Below are positions 23,744-30,451 of a stretch of DNA of 64,000 nt, piece after piece. This DNA comes from a virus. The stretch's first letter is position 1, and the number at the start of each line of letters is the position of its first letter. The translations under genes and the position numbers were made by a program. The notes beneath the pieces were generated by a model. That model searched no databases. It was not told the DNA's origin and was given only the letters and a program-made list of their open reading frames with translations. The stretch lies in UHGV virus genome UHGV-0072281. The stretch is one strand, 5' to 3'.

Positions 23744-24850
23744 ATGTTAGAAAAAACGTTTGAGACAAGCGTTGTCTCTTTCCTCTCCAGACTTCCCATG
23801 CTGTTTCGTTCGCGTGCGGAGTCGACGGAGGAATTTAACTCAGTGCTCTATAACGAGCACATTACCTTAGTCGAACAAAGCCTGCTGGGTTTAGATTACC
23901 TTCCGGGAATTCTGGAGAAAATCCAAGTTTTGCTGGCAGGAAACCAACTTACTGCAATCTCCCTGTTAACGGGTGTGCCTGATGTTGATATTATCGGTAC
24001 GCTGGATCAAGTAAGTACCCGTCGTAGCGCACTCGATAACGCAGTGCGTAGCGGCTCACGCTTAGCAGCACTGGCAGTCGGCGAATCTTCCCGCCTAGGA
24101 TTACCATCATACGATAAAATCGGCATTGCTGTGGGTGAATCCACCCGCCGTGTCGCACAGGAATCCAAAGGTTCCGTTACTGGTGGTAAAGCAGACCCGA
24201 TTAAACAACTGTTCGATCAGGAAGGACTGTCTAACGGGAAAATGTTCTCTGTAACGTTTGAACGTGACGGTAATAAAGTCGAACTTCCAATGCGTTTACG
24301 TTTGGACGTTAAGTCTCTTCCGACCGACCAGATTGAAACACTGATTGCATTCAGCGACCAGACGAAAACGTTCTGGGAACGTTGGCTACGAGCGCGTGTA
24401 GGTGCACTGAGCTATGTTAAAGACATTGCGTTCTGCAACGACCTGGTAGAAGAATACCGTAAGAACCGTTATCGCGATAAGTCAGGTTACTATCGTAAGA
24501 TGATGGAGAAGAAAAACGGCAACTGGCTGTCTGGCTTGCTGACGCTGGCACCGTCTATTAATAACGCTTCTTCTGTTATGGTGGTTTCTCAAGACACTAT
24601 CGACGGTCTGACCGCCCAGCTAGGCGGTGAGTTTGACGATTTCAATATTCGTCAGCGTGTCTTTAAAGACACCTTAACCGTCTATTACGTGGTAGTGGAC
24701 ACTGCGTGGAACCGCGTTACTATTTATACTCGCGGTCAGAACGGTTCTCAGGAACTTGATAAATCCGATTTCAGCAAAGCGAAGTCCGGTAGCGCCGATG
24801 TGAACAAAATCATTGAAGCGTATCGCTCTGGCGCACAGCCAGTTCTTTAA
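23744..24850 (+). CDS. hypothetical protein
   Basis: 368 aa; AGGAAAA SD. Confidence 0.8.
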   Translation: MLEKTFETSVVSFLSRLPMLFRSRAESTEEFNSVLYNEHITLVEQSLLGLDYLPGILEKIQVLLAGNQLTAISLLTGVPDVDIIGTLDQVSTRRSALDNAVRSGSRLAALAVGESSRLGLPSYDKIGIAVGESTRRVAQESKGSVTGGKADPIKQLFDQEGLSNGKMFSVTFERDGNKVELPMRLRLDVKSLPTDQIETLIAFSDQTKTFWERWLRARVGALSYVKDIAFCNDLVEEYRKNRYRDKSGYYRKMMEKKNGNWLSGLLTLAPSINNASSVMVVSQDTIDGLTAQLGGEFDDFNIRQRVFKDTLTVYYVVVDTAWNRVTIYTRGQNGSQELDKSDFSKAKSGSADVNKIIEAYRSGAQPVL

Positions 24851-24860
24851 GGGGTAAGGC

Positions 24861-25796
24861 ATGGCATTCCCGAATATGCTCGCTATGTTGTTGCCGAGCT
24901 TTGAAGCAACAAACTTGAAAAATCAGCTTTCGTCCAACTGCGATGCAATTGGCGAACAACTTTTACCACGTTTCCAGTCTTTACAAGAACTGGTAGCGTC
25001 GAAAGAAGGCAAACCGTTTAAATCGAAAACGGTACAAGAAATATCCGATGAGGTGGTTAACTACCTGCGGACTTCCGGTCTGGAAGCCAAAGGTCTCCGC
25101 AATCCATCGATGTTAGAGTACATCGTTTCCTCGATGGAAAACGTGTTGCAGTTGCGTTCTTTCTTAGACCAATGTATTGCGCGTGACATTGGTAAATCGT
25201 TAGTCACGTCTTCAATGACGTTTAATAAATTAACGGTGCTCAGACTGCTTGACCTGATTGATTTCTTCACAGGTTACAGCGCTACTTTACTTAACTACGT
25301 TACCGCAGAAGAGATTGCCGCTGTCGAAGGCTCGAATATTGAAGTGAAGGGCATCGGTCCGAATGACCTTCAATACCTCAATACTCGTTCGGTCTCTTAC
25401 TGCATCGCCATCCGTGTTTTGGCAACGCCGGTAAATAAACTGAAAGCGGATTATGCCGAAATCCCAGAAGCGATTTTCAATGACGAAACTTACGGTGAGT
25501 TGGTTCAGCAGTTCGGTTCGGGCTCGACTGACCCGCTGGGAATGAGCAGTGTACCGTTCCCGATCTCACTGGTACTTCGCGTTCGTTTGAATATTGCTGA
25601 AAGGCAGATGGATAAATACGACGAGTGCGTAGAAGCAGCGAAAGCTGCGGAGTTGCGTATCCTGCTTTACAAAAAGCAAGTAGCGGAAGGTAAGGGAGAT
25701 GCGCACATCGAAAAACTCATCGAGCTAAGTGAAAAGCATCTGTTGGAACTCAAGCATAAGCGTGAGCGTCTTGAGAAGAAATACGGTTTAGTGTAA
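24861..25796 (+). CDS. hypothetical protein
   Basis: 311 aa; AAGGGG SD. Confidence 0.8.
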   Translation: MAFPNMLAMLLPSFEATNLKNQLSSNCDAIGEQLLPRFQSLQELVASKEGKPFKSKTVQEISDEVVNYLRTSGLEAKGLRNPSMLEYIVSSMENVLQLRSFLDQCIARDIGKSLVTSSMTFNKLTVLRLLDLIDFFTGYSATLLNYVTAEEIAAVEGSNIEVKGIGPNDLQYLNTRSVSYCIAIRVLATPVNKLKADYAEIPEAIFNDETYGELVQQFGSGSTDPLGMSSVPFPISLVLRVRLNIAERQMDKYDECVEAAKAAELRILLYKKQVAEGKGDAHIEKLIELSEKHLLELKHKRERLEKKYGLV

Positions 25797-25813
25797 ACCG
25801 TTAGGAGAGCCTC

Positions 25814-26374
25814 ATGTTTGAGCACGATAGTCCCGATTTTAATGTGGCTGTAGAGCGCATTAAAACCTATATGTCGATTTTATCAAAAAACCCAATCGAC
25901 ACACACGATGACGAGCTTATTCACAAAACGCTGGAAGCGTGTGCGGTTGTATTACCGTACTTTCGTCTGTTAGCTGCTGACTCTGTGCAGCAGGTATTAT
26001 ATGACGAATATCCGCAGGTCGGATTTACCTTTAATACGTTTTATAACGAAAGCGTAGCCTTCCTGCTTGATGGTAAACGACGCACCGTGACGTTAGGACA
26101 GTGGTCCGTATTGCTGTCGTCGTACATGAATGATGTTCGCAATACGAAGAACGTTGAACAGACGGGCTCATTGGGTGGACGTCTTCTTGCTGCTGCGTTT
26201 GGTCGCCGGGGTACTGTACGTAATATGGGTTCCGCTCACCAGTCTGTTGAGTGTAGCAAACGTCTTTTATCTTATGCAGACCATGAACTGCTGGCACGCT
26301 GGATGACACGCCCGAACGGGTTGTCCGACATGATCTCGTCGTTAGCAGTGTTTTTGAAAATCGCACGTCCCTAA
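25814..26374 (+). CDS. hypothetical protein
   Basis: 186 aa; AGGAGAG SD. Confidence 0.75.
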   Translation: MFEHDSPDFNVAVERIKTYMSILSKNPIDTHDDELIHKTLEACAVVLPYFRLLAADSVQQVLYDEYPQVGFTFNTFYNESVAFLLDGKRRTVTLGQWSVLLSSYMNDVRNTKNVEQTGSLGGRLLAAAFGRRGTVRNMGSAHQSVECSKRLLSYADHELLARWMTRPNGLSDMISSLAVFLKIARP

Positions 26375-26433
26375 GGGGGCCCCTCATTCTAGGGGCGTGT
26401 AATTGGGTTATATAACCAAAGGAAATAAACGAA

Positions 26434-27705
26434 ATGGCAAATTTCGCAAAAACTCGCGCCGCTCGTGAATCGATGGAAGCGGCCGATGAAGTAATCGACG
26501 GTATCAGCAACGTTGAACCGGCAGAAGAGAACCTGGACGTCCAGCTTGCAGACGTAGCCTCTATCGACGGTCAGCTCGAACAGCTGGAAACCGACGGTGA
26601 AACCCTGGCTGCCGATACTGAGCGTACTGAAGACGCTATCGATCAGGCGGAAGAAGCCGTTGCTAACGGTGAAGAAATGCCGGAAGAAGCGGTTGCCCTG
26701 CAAGAAGTGGCTCAGGAATCCATCTCACGTCGTTGGAACCTGGAACGCACCAAACTGGCTCGCGAATCCTATCGCCGTGGCCGTGGCATGACTGCTGCTG
26801 CGCAGGAAGGCTGGAAAGAAACCCTGAAAGGTCTTTACGAGCGTTTCATTCAGTTCTGTAAAGAAGTGATTGCGAAGATCAAAGACCTGAAACTGAAATA
26901 TTTCAACGTCGGTAAGACCGCACAGAAACGTGCGAAGAAATATCAGGAAATGCTGCGCAAGCTGGGCAAACAGAAAAATGATACCATCTCCGGTGGCTTC
27001 ATTACTAAGCTGTCCATTGAAGGTAAATTCGATGCAGCTGGTTCTATCGCTATCGCGAAAGAAGTAACCTCTGGTAAAGCTAAAGGTGCTATTAGCGCAC
27101 TGGAAAAACAAGCTGGTGAAGCTGTTACTGCTGTAACCAAAGGTGACGATGAAGCATTCAAAGCAATGCGTGGCGATCAGCCGGTAGAACTGTTCGGTAA
27201 AGCAGCGTCTAAACTGCATAACCTGCCGAACTTTGAAAACGGCGATGCGTCTAAACTGCTGGCTCTGCCGGGTAACGCATACGTTCAGTCCGGTACTAAA
27301 GAACTGGCTGGCGGTCACAAATTTACCGCTGTTGCATTCATGAGCACTGGCGATGCCTCTGACGATAAAGACGTGAAAACTCCGTCTGTTTCTGAAATGG
27401 CTGGCGCTGCTTCTTCTCTGGAATCTATCGGTAAAGGCTTCGAAGCTGTACTGAAAGACTTCCGTGCTTACGATGCAGAGATTGCAAAACTGCAACAGGC
27501 CGCTGAGAAAGCTGCTAACGCGCTGAACAGCGAAAAAGACGAAAGCAAGTGGGATGGCCTGCGTAATGCTCGCCAAGCTGCTGACCAGTCTGTTAAGAAC
27601 TACCAGACCCTGAACCGTGCCGTTAGTTATGTTGCTAACACCGTAATTAGCGGTTTGAACGGTTACCTGGGCGCTGGTATCGGTGCTTACGAAAAATCTA
27701 AGTAA
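26434..27705 (+). CDS. abundant-looking paralogue A: acidic N-terminal propeptide-like region, coiled-coil middle, conserved C-terminal GAGIGAYEKSK
   Basis: 423 aa; AAAGGAAA SD; visibly enriched for ctg/cgt/ggt/aac/gaa codons; N-term MANFAKTRAARESMEA..; motif ALQEVAQESISRRWN. Confidence 0.9.
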   Translation: MANFAKTRAARESMEAADEVIDGISNVEPAEENLDVQLADVASIDGQLEQLETDGETLAADTERTEDAIDQAEEAVANGEEMPEEAVALQEVAQESISRRWNLERTKLARESYRRGRGMTAAAQEGWKETLKGLYERFIQFCKEVIAKIKDLKLKYFNVGKTAQKRAKKYQEMLRKLGKQKNDTISGGFITKLSIEGKFDAAGSIAIAKEVTSGKAKGAISALEKQAGEAVTAVTKGDDEAFKAMRGDQPVELFGKAASKLHNLPNFENGDASKLLALPGNAYVQSGTKELAGGHKFTAVAFMSTGDASDDKDVKTPSVSEMAGAASSLESIGKGFEAVLKDFRAYDAEIAKLQQAAEKAANALNSEKDESKWDGLRNARQAADQSVKNYQTLNRAVSYVANTVISGLNGYLGAGIGAYEKSK

Positions 27706-27785
27706 TACTTAGGTTTACGGTTCCGAACAGTTCTTGAAATAAATCATCAGGGGAGCGAAACGCTCCCCTTAGAGGAAAGCTTAAA

Positions 27786-29048
27786 ATGGCGAATTTCTAC
27801 AAAAACAAAATTGCTCGTGAGTCAATGGAAGCGAACTCTACTGTCGTTCCAGATGGTATTGAGCTGCCAGCAGAGTCTATCGAAGGTACTCTGGCTGATA
27901 TCGAGCACGACACTAAACCGATCGAAGCGCTGGACGCTGACGCAGAGCTGCTGGCGGAAGACGGCGACGAAACCGATGCGCAGCTGGACGTTCTGGACGA
28001 AGCTCAGGCTTCCGCTGACGGCGAAGGTGGTGAAGATGGCGACGATCAGATGGACGCTGAAGAAGACATGCCGGACGACGCTGCTAAAGCGCTGGATGTT
28101 GCTCAGGAATCCATCCGTTCTCGCTGGAACTTCGAACACCGTTCTTCCGTTGCTCACGAATCTTACGGCGCTCGTAACCGTCGTCAGGTTGCTCGTGAAT
28201 CCCTGTGGGACGACATTAAAGCCTTCCTGAAACGTTTCTGGGAATGGCTGAAAGAGCAAGGCCGCAAACTGAAAGATCGTTGGCTGAAATTCCACAACCA
28301 GGGTAAATCTATCCAGGCTCGTGCGAAGAAATACGACGAAGCTATTCGTAAACTGGGCAAACAGAAGAAAGATGAAATCTCCGGTGGTTTCATCAAGTGC
28401 CTGTCTGTTGACGGTAAGTTCGTTGGTAACGATGTACCACGTCTGAAAGACGCGATGAGCCGTGTTTCTTCTTTCTACAGCAAACACGTTCCAACTCTGC
28501 TGGCTTCTGGTACCGCTCTGGTTGCAGACGTATCCAAAGCTAACGGTGCTCAGGCTGAGCAACTGCGTGCTGAATTTGCTGCGCTTTCTAAAGAAGATGG
28601 CGACAAAGAATTCCGCCTGGGCAACATGGTTATGCAGACCAACTTCGATGAAGATGGTGGCTTTAGCTTCACTCACGTTGAAGCAGAAAATGCTGTTGAA
28701 ACCAGCGTGAAAACTCCGTCTGTAAGCGAACTGGCTAAACTGAACGGTTTCTTCACCGATCTGGGTAAACAGATTGAGAAGAACGTTCTCGAATACCGTA
28801 AGACCGAGCAGGCTCGTGAGAAGTTCGCTCAGTCTATCGAGAAACTGCTGAAAGAAATCGATAACGTCAAGATCGATGAAAAACCAGAACTGACTGAAGG
28901 CGTACGTGTTGCACGTCGCTATGTTAACAGCATTCGCAGCGCAGTATCCCTGTGCGAGAAAGTTGTTGCTTCTGCTCAGAAAAACCTGGTTAGCGGCGTT
29001 AGCGGTTATATCAGCGCCGGTATCGCAGCGTACGAAAAGTCTAAGTAA
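27786..29048 (+). CDS. abundant-looking paralogue B of 26434-27705
   Basis: 420 aa; N-term MANFYKNKIARESMEA.., motif ALDVAQESIRSRWN, C-term SAGIAAYEKSK; same codon bias. Confidence 0.9.
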   Translation: MANFYKNKIARESMEANSTVVPDGIELPAESIEGTLADIEHDTKPIEALDADAELLAEDGDETDAQLDVLDEAQASADGEGGEDGDDQMDAEEDMPDDAAKALDVAQESIRSRWNFEHRSSVAHESYGARNRRQVARESLWDDIKAFLKRFWEWLKEQGRKLKDRWLKFHNQGKSIQARAKKYDEAIRKLGKQKKDEISGGFIKCLSVDGKFVGNDVPRLKDAMSRVSSFYSKHVPTLLASGTALVADVSKANGAQAEQLRAEFAALSKEDGDKEFRLGNMVMQTNFDEDGGFSFTHVEAENAVETSVKTPSVSELAKLNGFFTDLGKQIEKNVLEYRKTEQAREKFAQSIEKLLKEIDNVKIDEKPELTEGVRVARRYVNSIRSAVSLCEKVVASAQKNLVSGVSGYISAGIAAYEKSK

Positions 29049-29069
29049 TCGTTGATTATTTAGCGTAGA

Positions 29070-29113
29070 ATCACCCCGCGATGCGGGGTGATTTCTTTTT
29101 TCTTTTTTTTTTT
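29070..29113 (+). terminator. strong intrinsic terminator
   Basis: 10-bp stem atcaccccgc-gat-gcggggtgat followed by >20 nt T-rich run. Confidence 0.9.
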
Positions 29114-29118
29114 CGATT

Positions 29119-29168
29119 AAAAATAATTTCAGATATATATTACTTAAGTGAGATTACACAGTAATCTC
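29119..29168 (+). promoter_or_regulatory. conserved promoter-like element, copy 1 (core TTTCAGATATATATTACTTAAGTGAGA)
   Basis: Near-identical to 37372-37423 over ~50 nt; located between terminator and next gene. Confidence 0.5.
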
Positions 29169-29203
29169 TTTACGACTTGTTTATTACGTTTAGGAGAAAT
29201 ATC

Positions 29204-29845
29204 ATGAGCCGCATTAATTTAACTGATTTTGTTGATGGTGTTGTAACTTTAGAAAGCAAAGGCGCGACCTTAGTTGCTCCGAATGCCAAAGTGCTGGATT
29301 TAAATCCTGTAGAAGTGATTGCTATTTCTACTTGGTTACGTTTGTCTTACGACAAGAAATTCGAAGGGTTAGAGAAAGAATCTCTAACTGTCAATACTCG
29401 TGAGTTTGTCTTTAAAGAAATCGACAGCGAAAAATTGGAAGCTTTCTCAAAACAGATGGTTAATCCACGTACAGACGGTGATGTCGGTATGCGCGAATAC
29501 AGTGGTGAAAAATACCATGCGTTTACTGATGCCCATGTTGCGTTGTGTGAGAAAGGTGAAGGGAGATTCGTTGCTGTTTGTTTCTTCCATTTAATCGCGC
29601 CGAAACAGAAAGATTTGCTGTTTGAAATCGCGAAGGATTCGGCAGAAGCGGTTATGGATACGATTGTTGAACTTTTCGAAGCGATGCGTGATATTCCGCG
29701 TGTGTTAGAAGTAAGTGAGGGACCTATGGATAGCTTTAAAATTCTACCATTGATTTATAGTAAGGACCATGAAGAGGAATGTACATTCGTCCTGTTCAAT
29801 GGTTCGATGGCTGCGTCTGTAAAACAGTTCGCTGCATCCATTTAA
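29204..29845 (+). CDS. hypothetical protein
   Basis: 213 aa from ATG 29204 with AGGAGAAA SD. Confidence 0.8.
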   Translation: MSRINLTDFVDGVVTLESKGATLVAPNAKVLDLNPVEVIAISTWLRLSYDKKFEGLEKESLTVNTREFVFKEIDSEKLEAFSKQMVNPRTDGDVGMREYSGEKYHAFTDAHVALCEKGEGRFVAVCFFHLIAPKQKDLLFEIAKDSAEAVMDTIVELFEAMRDIPRVLEVSEGPMDSFKILPLIYSKDHEEECTFVLFNGSMAASVKQFAASI

Positions 29846-29850
29846 ATACA

Positions 29851-29880
29851 AAGCCCTCCGTAGAGGGCTTTTATTTTTTC
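29851..29880 (+). terminator. intrinsic terminator
   Basis: Hairpin aagccctc-cgta-gagggctt then ttattttttc. Confidence 0.8.
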
Positions 29881-29899
29881 GACCTTTAGGAGAATAGAA

Positions 29900-30451
29900 A
29901 TGAACAAATTTAATATCTTAGACGCTAAAATCGTATCCGAGTCTTCTATTCAGCAAGAAATCTTTCGTGTTCAGTTCGGCGAGAAAGTTCTGAATATCCC
30001 ACGTCCCGTTATGATTGGCTTAGCGATATTCGTTAACAACAGCCATTGCAACGGTTCGGCGTTGTCAGTTCTTGAGTACGGTGACTATCAGTTTTATATT
30101 CCAGAGCATCTCGAGTATAACCGTTTTATTGAACTTAAACCGTTCTATAAATTCATGCTTGATGCAGGGTATTCGATTCTAACCAAAACGTATATTCGTG
30201 ACTACTCGAAGTTAGAATCTTTCTATCGTGCCCGTGGTCTTCGTGTCCCGCAACCGTTTGACGGATACCAGACCCGCGTTGTGTTAACTGCGCCGTTAAC
30301 GAAAGAACTGGCTTCCTATAAACTGGATATCGAGCAGAAACTACTGCGTGACGACTTACTGAAAATCTATAACCAGTTGTCCGTGGTACCTTCTTCAACT
30401 GTCTCGAACATTGAACCAGAGTACGGAATAAGACAATACAAGGAAGGTTAA
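29900..30451 (+). CDS. hypothetical protein
   Basis: 183 aa; AGGAGAA SD. Confidence 0.8.
   Translation: MNKFNILDAKIVSESSIQQEIFRVQFGEKVLNIPRPVMIGLAIFVNNSHCNGSALSVLEYGDYQFYIPEHLEYNRFIELKPFYKFMLDAGYSILTKTYIRDYSKLESFYRARGLRVPQPFDGYQTRVVLTAPLTKELASYKLDIEQKLLRDDLLKIYNQLSVVPSSTVSNIEPEYGIRQYKEG

What the first reader, a model, noticed from the sequence alone, without database searches (positions are those of the whole stretch)
26434..29048. Tandem highly expressed paralogues with acidic propeptide-like N-termini and conserved VAQES motif
The two ~420-aa proteins share N-terminal MANFxK..ARESMEA, a very acidic ~80-residue region, a conserved block VAQESI(S/R)(R/S)RWN(L/F)E, the block KKY(Q/D)E..RKLGKQK.D.ISGGFI, and a C-terminal (G/S)AGI(G/A)AYEKSK. 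Both are strongly biased to optimal codons, which implies high abundance. In phiKZ-like phages the prohead protease cleaves after S/A/G-x-E, and paralogous abundant head or inner-body proteins are processed this way; AQE immediately before the conserved block fits a propeptide cleavage site. The divergence of the N-terminal acidic regions against conserved mature parts fits this.
Basis: partly seen in the sequence, partly recalled or inferred. Interest (0 to 1): 0.6.

Follow-up and report, generated by a model that had tools for sequence, protein, structure and literature searches.

The report
Jumbo-phage internal head protein pair

Summary
Both belong to Pfam PF12699 (phiKZ-like internal head proteins) and are syntenic orthologues of Salmonella phage SPN3US gp53 and gp54. 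Published work shows those are present at more than 600 copies each per capsid and are cleaved by prohead protease gp245 after A-x-E. All mapped SPN3US sites are kept here. The mature N-termini are 30 residues further on (AQE-125|GWKETLK in W1, ARE-138|SLWDDIK in W2). Four [V/I/L/A]-A-x-E|S sites are conserved across 116 family members. What is new here is minor: the cassette is a recombination hot spot compared with 99-100% identical flanks in close relatives; an intergenic hairpin shows covariation; and the nearest relatives are deposited as 222-kb "plasmids". Verdict: a new member of a known kind, of low interest.

The parts
26379..26396 (+). Hairpin (GCCCCT...AGGGGC) directly after the stop codon of the upstream gp52-like gene. 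A leader sequence, GTGTAATTGGGTTATA(TA)ACCAAAGGAA, follows it and is nearly identical in SPN3US and Asesino.
   Evidence: RNAfold of the orthologous intergenic regions of four genomes; sequence read.
26419..26424 (+). Shine-Dalgarno-like AAGGAA, 9 nt upstream of the W1 ATG.
   Evidence: Read directly from the sequence.
26434..27705 (+). W1, 423 aa: orthologue of SPN3US gp53 (70% identity), a PF12699 internal head / ejection protein.
26434..26469 (+). W1 residues 1-12 (MANFAKTRAARE|S): conserved N-terminal leader ending at cut site 1, ARE-12. It resembles a capsid-targeting sequence.
   Evidence: 75% identity between the paralogues over residues 1-16 against 35% over 17-91. ARE-12 is cleaved in SPN3US gp53. 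A10, E12 and S13 are invariant in 43 family members.
26470..26718 (+).
   Evidence: pI 4.05. AQE-95 is cleaved in SPN3US gp53. The site is conserved in 55 of 55 gp53-like proteins as [VI][AG]xE|S.
26719..26808 (+). W1 residues 96-125: basic 30-aa linker (pI 11.6) that contains cut site 3 (ARE-111|S) and ends at the maturation site AQE-125|G.
   Evidence: The SPN3US gp53 maturation peptide (E)GWKETLK is reported.
26809..27702 (+). W1 predicted mature protein, residues 126-423: 31.9 kDa, pI 9.3. A long-helix bundle with a beta-rich subdomain at about residues 177-315.
   Evidence: AlphaFold2 model with pLDDT 83 and pTM 0.80; BFVD fold matches to jumbo-phage internal head proteins.
27749..27769 (+). 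GC-rich intergenic hairpin (8-9 bp stem, AAA loop, no T-run) immediately before the W2 ribosome-binding site AGAGGA (27771-27776).
   Evidence: Covariation: 100% of cells paired and 4 of 8 pairs with compensatory changes across 4 distinct sequences.
27786..29048 (+). W2, 420 aa: orthologue of SPN3US gp54 (62% identity), a PF12699 internal head / ejection protein.
27786..28199 (+). W2 propeptide, residues 1-138 (15.1 kDa, pI 4.1), with A-x-E|S sites ARE-12, AQE-108, AHE-125 and the maturation site ARE-138|SLWDDIK.
   Evidence: SPN3US gp54 is cut at AQE-124 and ARE-137, mapped onto W2.
28200..29045 (+). W2 predicted mature protein, residues 139-420: 31.6 kDa, pI 9.3. Residues about 200-420 are the most divergent stretch compared with near-identical relatives.
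29068..29113 (+). Strong intrinsic terminator (12-bp stem, 7 GC pairs) followed by a long T-run, closing the two-gene unit.
   Evidence: It is conserved in position in SPN3US, Asesino and the E. ludwigii replicon, with different stem sequences.

Best explanation
W1 and W2 are the gp53/gp54-type 'paralog family A' internal head (ejection) proteins of an SPN3US-like jumbo phage. SHOWN HERE: family membership, orthology, synteny, retention of every mapped protease site, the charge split between the two halves, and capsid-protein-level codon bias. SHOWN IN ORTHOLOGUES (published): more than 600 copies of each per capsid; incorporation into the prohead as the main components of a T=1 inner shell under the T=27 capsid; cleavage after A-x-E by the S80 prohead protease gp245; retention of the C-terminal product of about 31 kDa in the DNA-filled head. 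INFERRED: both genes are transcribed late as one unit bounded by a hairpin and a strong terminator. The conserved 12-residue leader acts like a capsid-targeting signal. The acidic segment of about 85-95 residues offsets the charge of the basic mature domain and/or contacts the capsid wall during assembly. The protease cuts at four conserved sites (E-12, E-95/108, E-111/125, E-125/138), breaking the propeptide into small pieces and releasing a basic helical protein of about 31 kDa that stays with the packaged DNA. At infection this protein probably leaves with the genome, as phiKZ gp93, gp95 and gp97 do.
For: PF12699 hits at 1.9e-73 and 3.6e-59 and phrog_2497 'internal head protein' at 1.5e-145 and 8e-123. 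The gene order gp50-gp51-gp52-gp53-gp54...DHFR is the same as in SPN3US and Asesino. Identity to SPN3US gp53 is 70% and to gp54 62%. The window proteins carry the exact mature N-terminal peptides GWKETLK and SLWDDIK. SPN3US sites ARE-12, AQE-95 and AQE-125 sit at identical residue numbers in W1, and AQE-124 and ARE-137 map to AHE-125 and ARE-138 in W2. In 116 family members all four sites are kept as [VILA]-A-x-E|S with a free P2, while A-x-E triplets in the mature part are not conserved. Site positions P3, P1 and P1' are invariant in 7 of 12 cases against 27 of 411 elsewhere (p = 7e-6). As an internal control, the sites in the gp45-, gp47- and gp50-like proteins, the major capsid protein and the portal encoded in the same window are all retained. 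The window's 95-99% identical relative encodes an S80 protease 81% identical to gp245. Propeptide pI is 4.1-4.2 and mature pI 9.3; the predicted masses of 31.9 and 31.6 kDa match SPN3US (31.5 and 30.3 kDa). The codon bias equals that of the capsid gene. The AF2 fold matches 107 jumbo-phage virion proteins, with TM-scores up to 0.85. Literature: copy number (PMC5694885), inner shell (PMC7552025), injection of phiKZ PF12699 proteins (bioRxiv 10.1101/2024.03.24.586471).
Against: There is no experimental data for this phage, so abundance, cleavage and ejection are all transferred from orthologues that are 62-70% identical. The protease gene is not in the window. Ejection is itself inferred for SPN3US gp53 and gp54, and in phiKZ one PF12699 protein (gp162) stays in the head. 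Sites E-111 of W1 and E-12 and E-108 of W2 have no mass-spectrometry support in SPN3US. The charge-offset role of the propeptide is inference only.
Confidence: 0.88

Rival explanations
1. One reading: a single propeptide cut at VAQE|S, so the mature proteins start at SISRRW / SIRSRW and the conserved block marks the mature N-terminus.
For: VAQE|S fits the gp245 logo exactly (V at P4, S at P1'). It is invariant in all 61 gp54-like proteins and kept as a site in all 55 gp53-like proteins. AQE-95 is cleaved in SPN3US gp53.
Against: In SPN3US the dominant semi-tryptic peptides and the gel mobility place the mature N-termini at E-125|GWKETLK (57 spectral matches) and E-137|SLWDDIK. Both peptides and both sites are identical in the window proteins. 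AQE-95 is listed as an additional cut inside the propeptide.
Confidence: 0.07
2. Dual-product model, as for phiKZ gp93 and gp162: the piece between cut 1 and cut 2 (W1 13-95, W2 13-108) is not discarded. It stays on the inner capsid wall as a fibre-like cementing protein, and only the helical C-terminal domain becomes internal or ejected cargo.
For: In the 3.5 A phiKZ capsid, gp93 residues 14-84 and gp162 residues 19-134, both bounded by protease sites, are resolved on the inner surface (PMC11297242). SPN3US gp53 shows unusually many spectra from its propeptide region in mature heads. Between close relatives the W2 propeptide is far better conserved than its mature part, as would be expected if it contacts the conserved capsid protein.
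Against: There was no detectable sequence similarity to the solved phiKZ chains. AF2 predicts one long helix at 34-77 packed on the bundle rather than extended arms. The strongly acidic composition has no stated counterpart in the phiKZ paper sections read here. The SPN3US authors interpret the residual peptides as incomplete clearance.
Confidence: 0.25
3. The proteins are mainly scaffold or core proteins. Their job is to build the T=1 inner shell that guides T=27 capsid assembly, and the mature fragments are DNA-associated leftovers that are not functionally ejected.
For: gp53 and gp54 are the main constituents of the inner shell in protease-deficient capsids. Heads lacking them are unstable (243(am114)). 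No classical scaffold has been assigned. phiKZ gp162 is not injected.
Against: Unlike classical scaffolds, the bulk of each protein stays in the mature head at high copy number. The homologues phiKZ gp93, gp95 and gp97 are visibly injected with the DNA. This role does not exclude the ejection role.
Confidence: 0.2
4. The proteins are membrane-active ejected effectors with a ClyA-type pore-forming fold or ESCRT-III-like remodelling activity, which build or breach membranes (for example the early infection vesicle).
Confidence: 0.03

Closest known systems
Salmonella phage SPN3US gp53 and gp54 ('paralog family A', high-abundance E proteins; Thomas, Ali, Weintraub et al.; PMC5694885, PMC10052503, PMC7552025)
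   Same: Same tandem arrangement and flanking genes, the same Pfam family and nearly the same lengths (423/420 aa against 425/419). The N-terminal leader MANFxK..ARES is shared, the A-x-E sites sit at the same or +1 residue numbers, and the mature N-terminal peptides are identical. Predicted propeptide and mature masses match. The terminator and the intergenic hairpin are in the same positions.
   Different: Only 70% and 62% amino-acid identity and about 75% nucleotide identity. P2 differs at one site (AHE-125 against AQE-124). The genome of the closest relatives is about 222 kb rather than 240 kb. Nothing has been tested experimentally for this phage.
Pseudomonas phage phiKZ inner-body proteins gp93, gp95, gp97, gp162 and others (PF12699; Thomas et al. 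2012; PMC11297242; bioRxiv 10.1101/2024.03.24.586471)
   Same: The Pfam family and the helix-rich fold are shared. Processing is by an S80 prohead protease after x-E, including a cut about 12-17 residues from the N-terminus. The proteins are abundant, associated with DNA, and packaged inside the head.
   Different: phiKZ has seven or eight paralogues at about 100-200 copies each, which form a discrete cylindrical inner body; SPN3US-type phages have two paralogues at more than 600 copies each and no visible inner body. The phiKZ protease accepts S/A/G at P3, whereas here all conserved sites have A. Sequence identity is too low for direct alignment to the solved phiKZ fragments.
Phage T4 internal proteins IPI, IPII and IPIII with a capsid-targeting sequence cleaved by gp21 (comparison drawn by the SPN3US authors, and from general knowledge of T4)
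   Same: These are small-to-medium basic proteins packed with the DNA and injected with it. A short conserved N-terminal leader is removed by the prohead protease after a glutamate.
   Different: There is no sequence or fold relationship. The T4 leaders are about 10-19 residues, not a multi-cut propeptide of 125-138 residues. The T4 internal proteins are dispensable, whereas loss of gp53 and gp54 incorporation destabilises SPN3US heads.
phiKZ gp86 (vertex-binding minor capsid protein, PDB 8y6v chain G)

Membership tests
Pfam PF12699 phiKZ_IP / PHROG 2497 internal head protein | Full-length match to the family profile above the curated cut-off | tested here: met
   248.3 and 201.4 bits against the 27-bit gathering score, covering profile positions 2-387 of 387. 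phrog_2497 at 1.5e-145 and 8e-123.
Pfam PF12699 phiKZ_IP / PHROG 2497 internal head protein | Helix-rich fold shared with the virion internal proteins of jumbo phages | tested here: met
   AF2 model with pLDDT 83 and pTM 0.80. 107 BFVD matches with E <= 1e-3 and TM-scores up to 0.85, from Pseudomonas, Ralstonia, Erwinia, Klebsiella and Vibrio jumbo phages.
SPN3US gp53/gp54 orthologous pair (paralog family A) | Tandem pair in conserved synteny (gp50-gp51-gp52 upstream, dihydrofolate reductase a few genes downstream) | tested here: met
SPN3US gp53/gp54 orthologous pair (paralog family A) | A-x-E protease sites at the positions mapped by mass spectrometry, and the same mature N-terminal peptides | tested here: met
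   ARE-12, AQE-95 and AQE-125|GWKETLK in W1; AHE-125 and ARE-138|SLWDDIK in W2. Family-wide conservation; enrichment p = 7e-6.
SPN3US gp53/gp54 orthologous pair (paralog family A) | An S80-family prohead protease (gp245 homologue) encoded by the same phage | tested here: inconclusive
   No homologue in the 64-kb window, which is expected because the gene lies about 170 kb away in SPN3US. The window's 95-99% identical relative NZ_CP134650.1 encodes one at 81% identity. Sites in five other substrates in the window are retained.
SPN3US gp53/gp54 orthologous pair (paralog family A) | High copy number in the virion head | not testable with these tools
   Proxy only: codon bias equal to that of the major capsid gene.
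SPN3US gp53/gp54 orthologous pair (paralog family A) | Actual cleavage in vivo, and ejection into the host | not testable with these tools
   Requires virion mass spectrometry and infection microscopy.
ClyA-family alpha-pore-forming toxins | Significant structural match, plus a hydrophobic beta-tongue or membrane-inserting segment | tested here: not met
   [not shown]
ESCRT-III / Snf7 / PspA superfamily | Match to the Snf7 family profile that recurs across members and lies in the functional (mature) protein | tested here: not met
   Only a borderline profile-to-PDB hit (E = 0.0045-0.012), confined to the propeptide. Snf7 is absent from the recurrent weak Pfam hits of 43 members.

The most novel reading that the evidence does not exclude
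The gp53/gp54 cassette is a hot spot for allele exchange. In a genome otherwise 99-100% identical to its relatives, identity drops exactly at the W1 start codon and reaches 59-72% over the mature half of W2, with synonymous divergence 10-50 times that of the flanking genes. One reading is that the ejected, host-exposed domains are swapped among co-circulating jumbo phages under pressure from host defences that sense incoming phage proteins. Under that reading the better-conserved 'propeptide' would be constrained because, as in phiKZ gp93 and gp162, it is a functional capsid-lining piece rather than waste.
Probability: 0.2. Interest if true: 0.5.

Novelty: new member of a known kind. Interest (0 to 1): 0.2.

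Why it matters
This is mainly a confirmation: a sequence-only reading correctly recovered a biochemically characterised maturation system. The practical gains are modest. The two proteins can now be annotated; they are labelled 'hypothetical protein' in the closest public records, which are filed as plasmids. The mature N-termini can be predicted precisely (G126 and S139). The family comparison shows four conserved cut sites rather than the two or three seen by mass spectrometry, which gives specific targets for the missing SPN3US peptides. The sharp recombination boundary at this cassette could be a lead on how jumbo phages diversify the proteins they inject.

Tried and rejected

(2) ESCRT-III/Snf7 similarity. 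I rejected it as coiled-coil or acidic composition. It lies in the propeptide only and does not recur in the Pfam scans of 43 members.

(4) Search for a solved structure by sequence. The single sequence gave nothing and the profile gave nothing relevant.

(5) Further paralogues in the window. A profile search of 99 ORFs found only W1 and W2; the next best hit had E = 0.49.

(6) The long antisense ORFs (26725..27576 and 27822..28676, minus strand). I rejected them as genes because the same antisense frame is open in every orthologue and in the capsid gene, which is a by-product of codon bias.

(7) Sigma-70 promoters. None were found in 25700-29950, against 4.7 expected by chance. This is consistent with transcription by phage RNA polymerases, but the true promoter was not identified.

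(8) Positive selection as the cause of W2 divergence. dN/dS is 0.07-0.38 with very high dS, so recombination explains the divergence better than point-mutational selection does.

(9) The C-terminal AYE|KSK as a fifth cut site. It fits A-x-E, but P1' is K and the E is not conserved in the gp53-like clade, so there is no support.
Full report
OBSERVATION. They align over their full length at 36% identity, E 3e-59. Up to the AQE motif the N-termini are strongly acidic: 28 D/E against 4 K/R in W1 and 35 against 5 in W2, pI 4.05 for both. The codon-bias claim also holds. The two genes have the lowest effective number of codons of the 53 genes I delimited in the window (33.3 and 31.7 against a median of 48.2). 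Their E. coli-type CAI values are 0.68 and 0.72, ranks 3 and 1. The long antisense ORFs inside both genes are a by-product of that bias, because the same antisense frame is open in every orthologue and in the capsid gene.

IDENTITY. Both proteins match Pfam PF12699 'phiKZ-like phage internal head proteins' at 248 and 201 bits against a 27-bit cut-off, across the whole profile. Both also match PHROG 2497 'internal head protein'. At about 75% nucleotide identity the region matches SPN3US-like Salmonella phages and Erwinia phages such as Asesino, Stratton and phiEaH2. In those genomes the same tandem pair sits between the same neighbours. W1 is 70% identical to SPN3US gp53 and W2 is 62% identical to gp54. 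An AlphaFold2 model of W1 (pLDDT 83, pTM 0.80) shows long helices with a beta-rich subdomain. It matches 107 predicted viral structures at E <= 1e-3 with TM-scores up to 0.85; all of the top 50 listed that carry a name are jumbo-phage virion or internal head proteins. A family profile found no further paralogue among the 99 ORFs of the window.

WHAT IS KNOWN ABOUT THE ORTHOLOGUES. SPN3US gp53 and gp54 ('paralog family A') are, with the capsid protein, the most abundant head proteins, conservatively more than 600 copies each (PMC5694885). In protease-deficient capsids they are the main constituents of a T=1 inner shell beneath the T=27 capsid. That shell disappears on maturation, although the proteins stay in the head (PMC7552025). 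The prohead protease gp245 cuts after A-x-E, with a preference for V at P4 and S at P1'. Table 2 of PMC10052503 lists gp53 sites ARE-12, AQE-95 and AQE-125, the last being the maturation cut that gives (E)GWKETLK. It lists gp54 sites AQE-124 and ARE-137, the last being the maturation cut that gives (E)SLWDDIK. In phiKZ, the PF12699 proteins gp93, gp95 and gp97 are injected with the DNA, while gp162 stays in the head.

MAPPING ONTO THE WINDOW. W1 has ARE-12, AQE-95 and AQE-125|GWKETLK at the same residue numbers as gp53. W2 has AHE-125 and ARE-138|SLWDDIK, matching gp54's 124 and 137. The predicted products are a propeptide of 13.7 kDa and a mature protein of 31.9 kDa for W1, and 15.1 and 31.6 kDa for W2. 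SPN3US gives 13.8/31.5 and 14.8/30.3 kDa. The final boundary is 30 residues downstream, and the conserved VAQESIxxRW block is part of what is removed. That 30-residue stretch is basic (pI 11.6), unlike the acidic segment before it.

FAMILY-WIDE TEST. I aligned the two window proteins with 114 full-length homologues from a 5.8-billion-protein search, 116 sequences in all: 55 gp53-like and 61 gp54-like. Four sites are conserved in both clades as [V/I/L/A]-A-x-E|S(G), with P2 free to vary: E-12, E-95/108, E-111/125 and E-125/138. A-x-E triplets in the mature region are not conserved. In a 43-sequence alignment, 7 of the 12 P3/P1/P1' positions are invariant against 27 of 411 other positions (Fisher p = 7e-6). 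Eleven of the 12 are at least 90% conserved. A-x-E density is about 3.3 times higher in the propeptides than in the mature parts (counted). This suggests four cuts per protein, more than mass spectrometry has detected so far.

INTERNAL CONTROL AND THE PROTEASE. The window also encodes orthologues of five other gp245 substrates, and every mapped site is retained. These are gp45-like AAE-31, gp47-like ATE-79 and ALE-111, gp50-like AQE-140, the capsid protein AQE-131, and the portal ATE-161 and AHE-249 (the RefSeq start codons shift two of the published residue numbers). The protease itself is not in the window. It is present in the window's closest relative, annotated as an S80 family morphogenetic serine protease and 81% identical to gp245.

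EXPRESSION ANATOMY. No sigma-70-like promoter occurs in 25700-29950, against 4.7 expected by chance. That fits phages which use their own RNA polymerases. A hairpin follows the upstream gene's stop codon, and after it comes a leader that is almost identical in SPN3US and Asesino. A GC-rich hairpin without a T-run lies directly before W2's ribosome-binding site. A 12-bp stem with a long T-run follows W2. The intergenic hairpin is 100% paired in four distinct sequences, with compensatory changes at 4 of its 8 pairs, and no slid register comes close. Its role, whether attenuation, processing or transcript stability, is unknown.

MECHANISM, WITH SHOWN AND INFERRED STEPS KEPT APART. Shown here: orthology, retention of the sites, the charge split (propeptide pI 4.1-4.2, mature pI 9.3) and capsid-level codon bias. 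Shown in orthologues: abundance, the inner-shell location in proheads, cleavage by gp245, and retention of the mature part in the head. Inferred: the conserved 12-residue leader works like a capsid-targeting sequence. It is 75% identical between the paralogues over residues 1-16, against 35% in the following segment, and the SPN3US authors themselves draw the T4 analogy. Also inferred: the acidic segment offsets the charge of the basic domain or contacts the capsid until the protease fragments it, and the basic product of about 31 kDa then stays with the DNA and probably leaves with it.

A REFINEMENT NOT EXCLUDED. In the 3.5 A phiKZ capsid, the N-terminal pieces of the PF12699 proteins gp93 (residues 14-84) and gp162 (residues 19-134) are bounded by protease sites and remain on the inner wall as fibre-like cement (PMC11297242). 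SPN3US gp53 gives unusually many spectra from its 'propeptide' in mature heads. W1 13-95 and W2 13-108 might therefore be functional products rather than waste. I could not test this. No sequence similarity to the solved phiKZ chains was found.

UNEXPECTED SIDE FINDING. The window's nearest relatives are circular 222-kb replicons deposited as plasmids: Enterobacter ludwigii NZ_CP134650.1 and E. coli NZ_CP173450.1. Against both, the window is 99-100% identical from 23700 to about 26500. From about the W1 start codon onwards identity falls to 83-93% through W1 and to 59-72% over 28395-29087, which is W2 residues about 200-420. The next ORF is replaced altogether. The two relatives stay 96-100% identical to each other throughout. 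Synonymous divergence is 0.32 for W1 and 0.56 for W2, against 0.008-0.045 in the flanking genes and the capsid gene, and dN/dS stays below 0.4. This is the signature of a recombinational allele swap, not of point-mutational positive selection.

IDEAS TESTED AND DROPPED. The ClyA-type pore-former reading, the ESCRT-III/Snf7 reading and gp86 homology all failed or remain unproven.

VERDICT. It describes a system already characterised experimentally in SPN3US and phiKZ. The window proteins are new, unannotated members of that family, with the maturation boundary corrected by 30 residues. Interest is low. The recombination hot spot and the possible second life of the 'propeptide' are the only leads that go beyond the literature.

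Noticed in passing
whole window; L005 (NZ_CP134650.1) and L003 (NZ_CP173450.1): The closest relatives of the window (95-99% nucleotide identity) are circular 222-kb replicons deposited as plasmids of Enterobacter ludwigii (gull cloaca) and E. coli (human urine), with nearly all genes labelled 'hypothetical protein'. Many contigs of about 220-227 kb in Salmonella, Shigella and E. coli isolate assemblies carry the same proteins. It looks like a jumbo phage travelling with bacterial isolates, either in a carrier state or as contamination, and misfiled as a plasmid.
   Followed up: partly
window 26434-29845: Sharp mosaic boundary. Identity to both relatives is 99-100% up to about the W1 start codon, 83-93% through W1, 59-72% at 28395-29087 and 48% from 29187. 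dS is 0.32 and 0.56 against 0.008-0.045 in the flanking genes, with dN/dS below 0.4. This indicates a recombinational swap of the internal-head-protein cassette.
   Followed up: partly
window 29177-29845 (+): A 222-aa ORF directly after the terminator has no Pfam or PHROG hit. Both near-identical relatives have only a 177-nt ORF at this position. SPN3US and Asesino have unrelated-looking hypothetical genes of 756 and 657 nt there.
   Followed up: no
window 27749-27769: An intergenic hairpin lies just before the W2 ribosome-binding site and has no T-run. It is conserved in position in SPN3US, Asesino and the two 'plasmids', with 4 of 8 base pairs changed on both sides and 100% pairing. Its function is unknown.
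   Followed up: yes
window 29127-29169: Downstream of the terminator, the motif TTTCAGATATATATTAC..AGTGAGATT(n)AATCTC, an AT-rich box followed by a small hairpin, is nearly identical in the window, SPN3US, Asesino and the E. ludwigii replicon, even though SPN3US and Asesino are only about 75% identical to the window at the nucleotide level. It is a candidate phage promoter or regulatory element for the next gene.
   Followed up: no
window 26397-26425: The leader upstream of W1, GTGTAATTGGGTTATA(TA)ACCAAAGGAA, is almost invariant across SPN3US, Asesino and the window. It is a candidate late promoter or 5' UTR element. No sigma-70-like promoter was found anywhere in 25700-29950.
   Followed up: no
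window 23744-24850 (+): The upstream gp50-like virion protein (84% identical to SPN3US gp50) also carries RVAQE|S at E-140. This aligns with the ATE site that mass spectrometry mapped in gp50, which is E-145 in RefSeq numbering and 'ATE-127' in the paper. The published residue numbers for gp47 and gp50 do not match the RefSeq start codons.
   Followed up: yes
window 25814-26374 (+): The gp52-like ORF immediately upstream matches Pfam PF25618, the phiKZ gp91 vertex-binding protein, just above its cut-off (28.7 bits against 27, E 1.4e-6). The cassette therefore sits among inner-capsid-surface proteins.
   Followed up: no
[not shown]
   Followed up: partly
window 27691-27702 and 29034-29045: The conserved C-terminus ...AYE|KSK also fits A-x-E three residues from the end. 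However, P1' is K and the E is not conserved in the gp53-like clade, so a C-terminal trim is not supported.
   Followed up: partly
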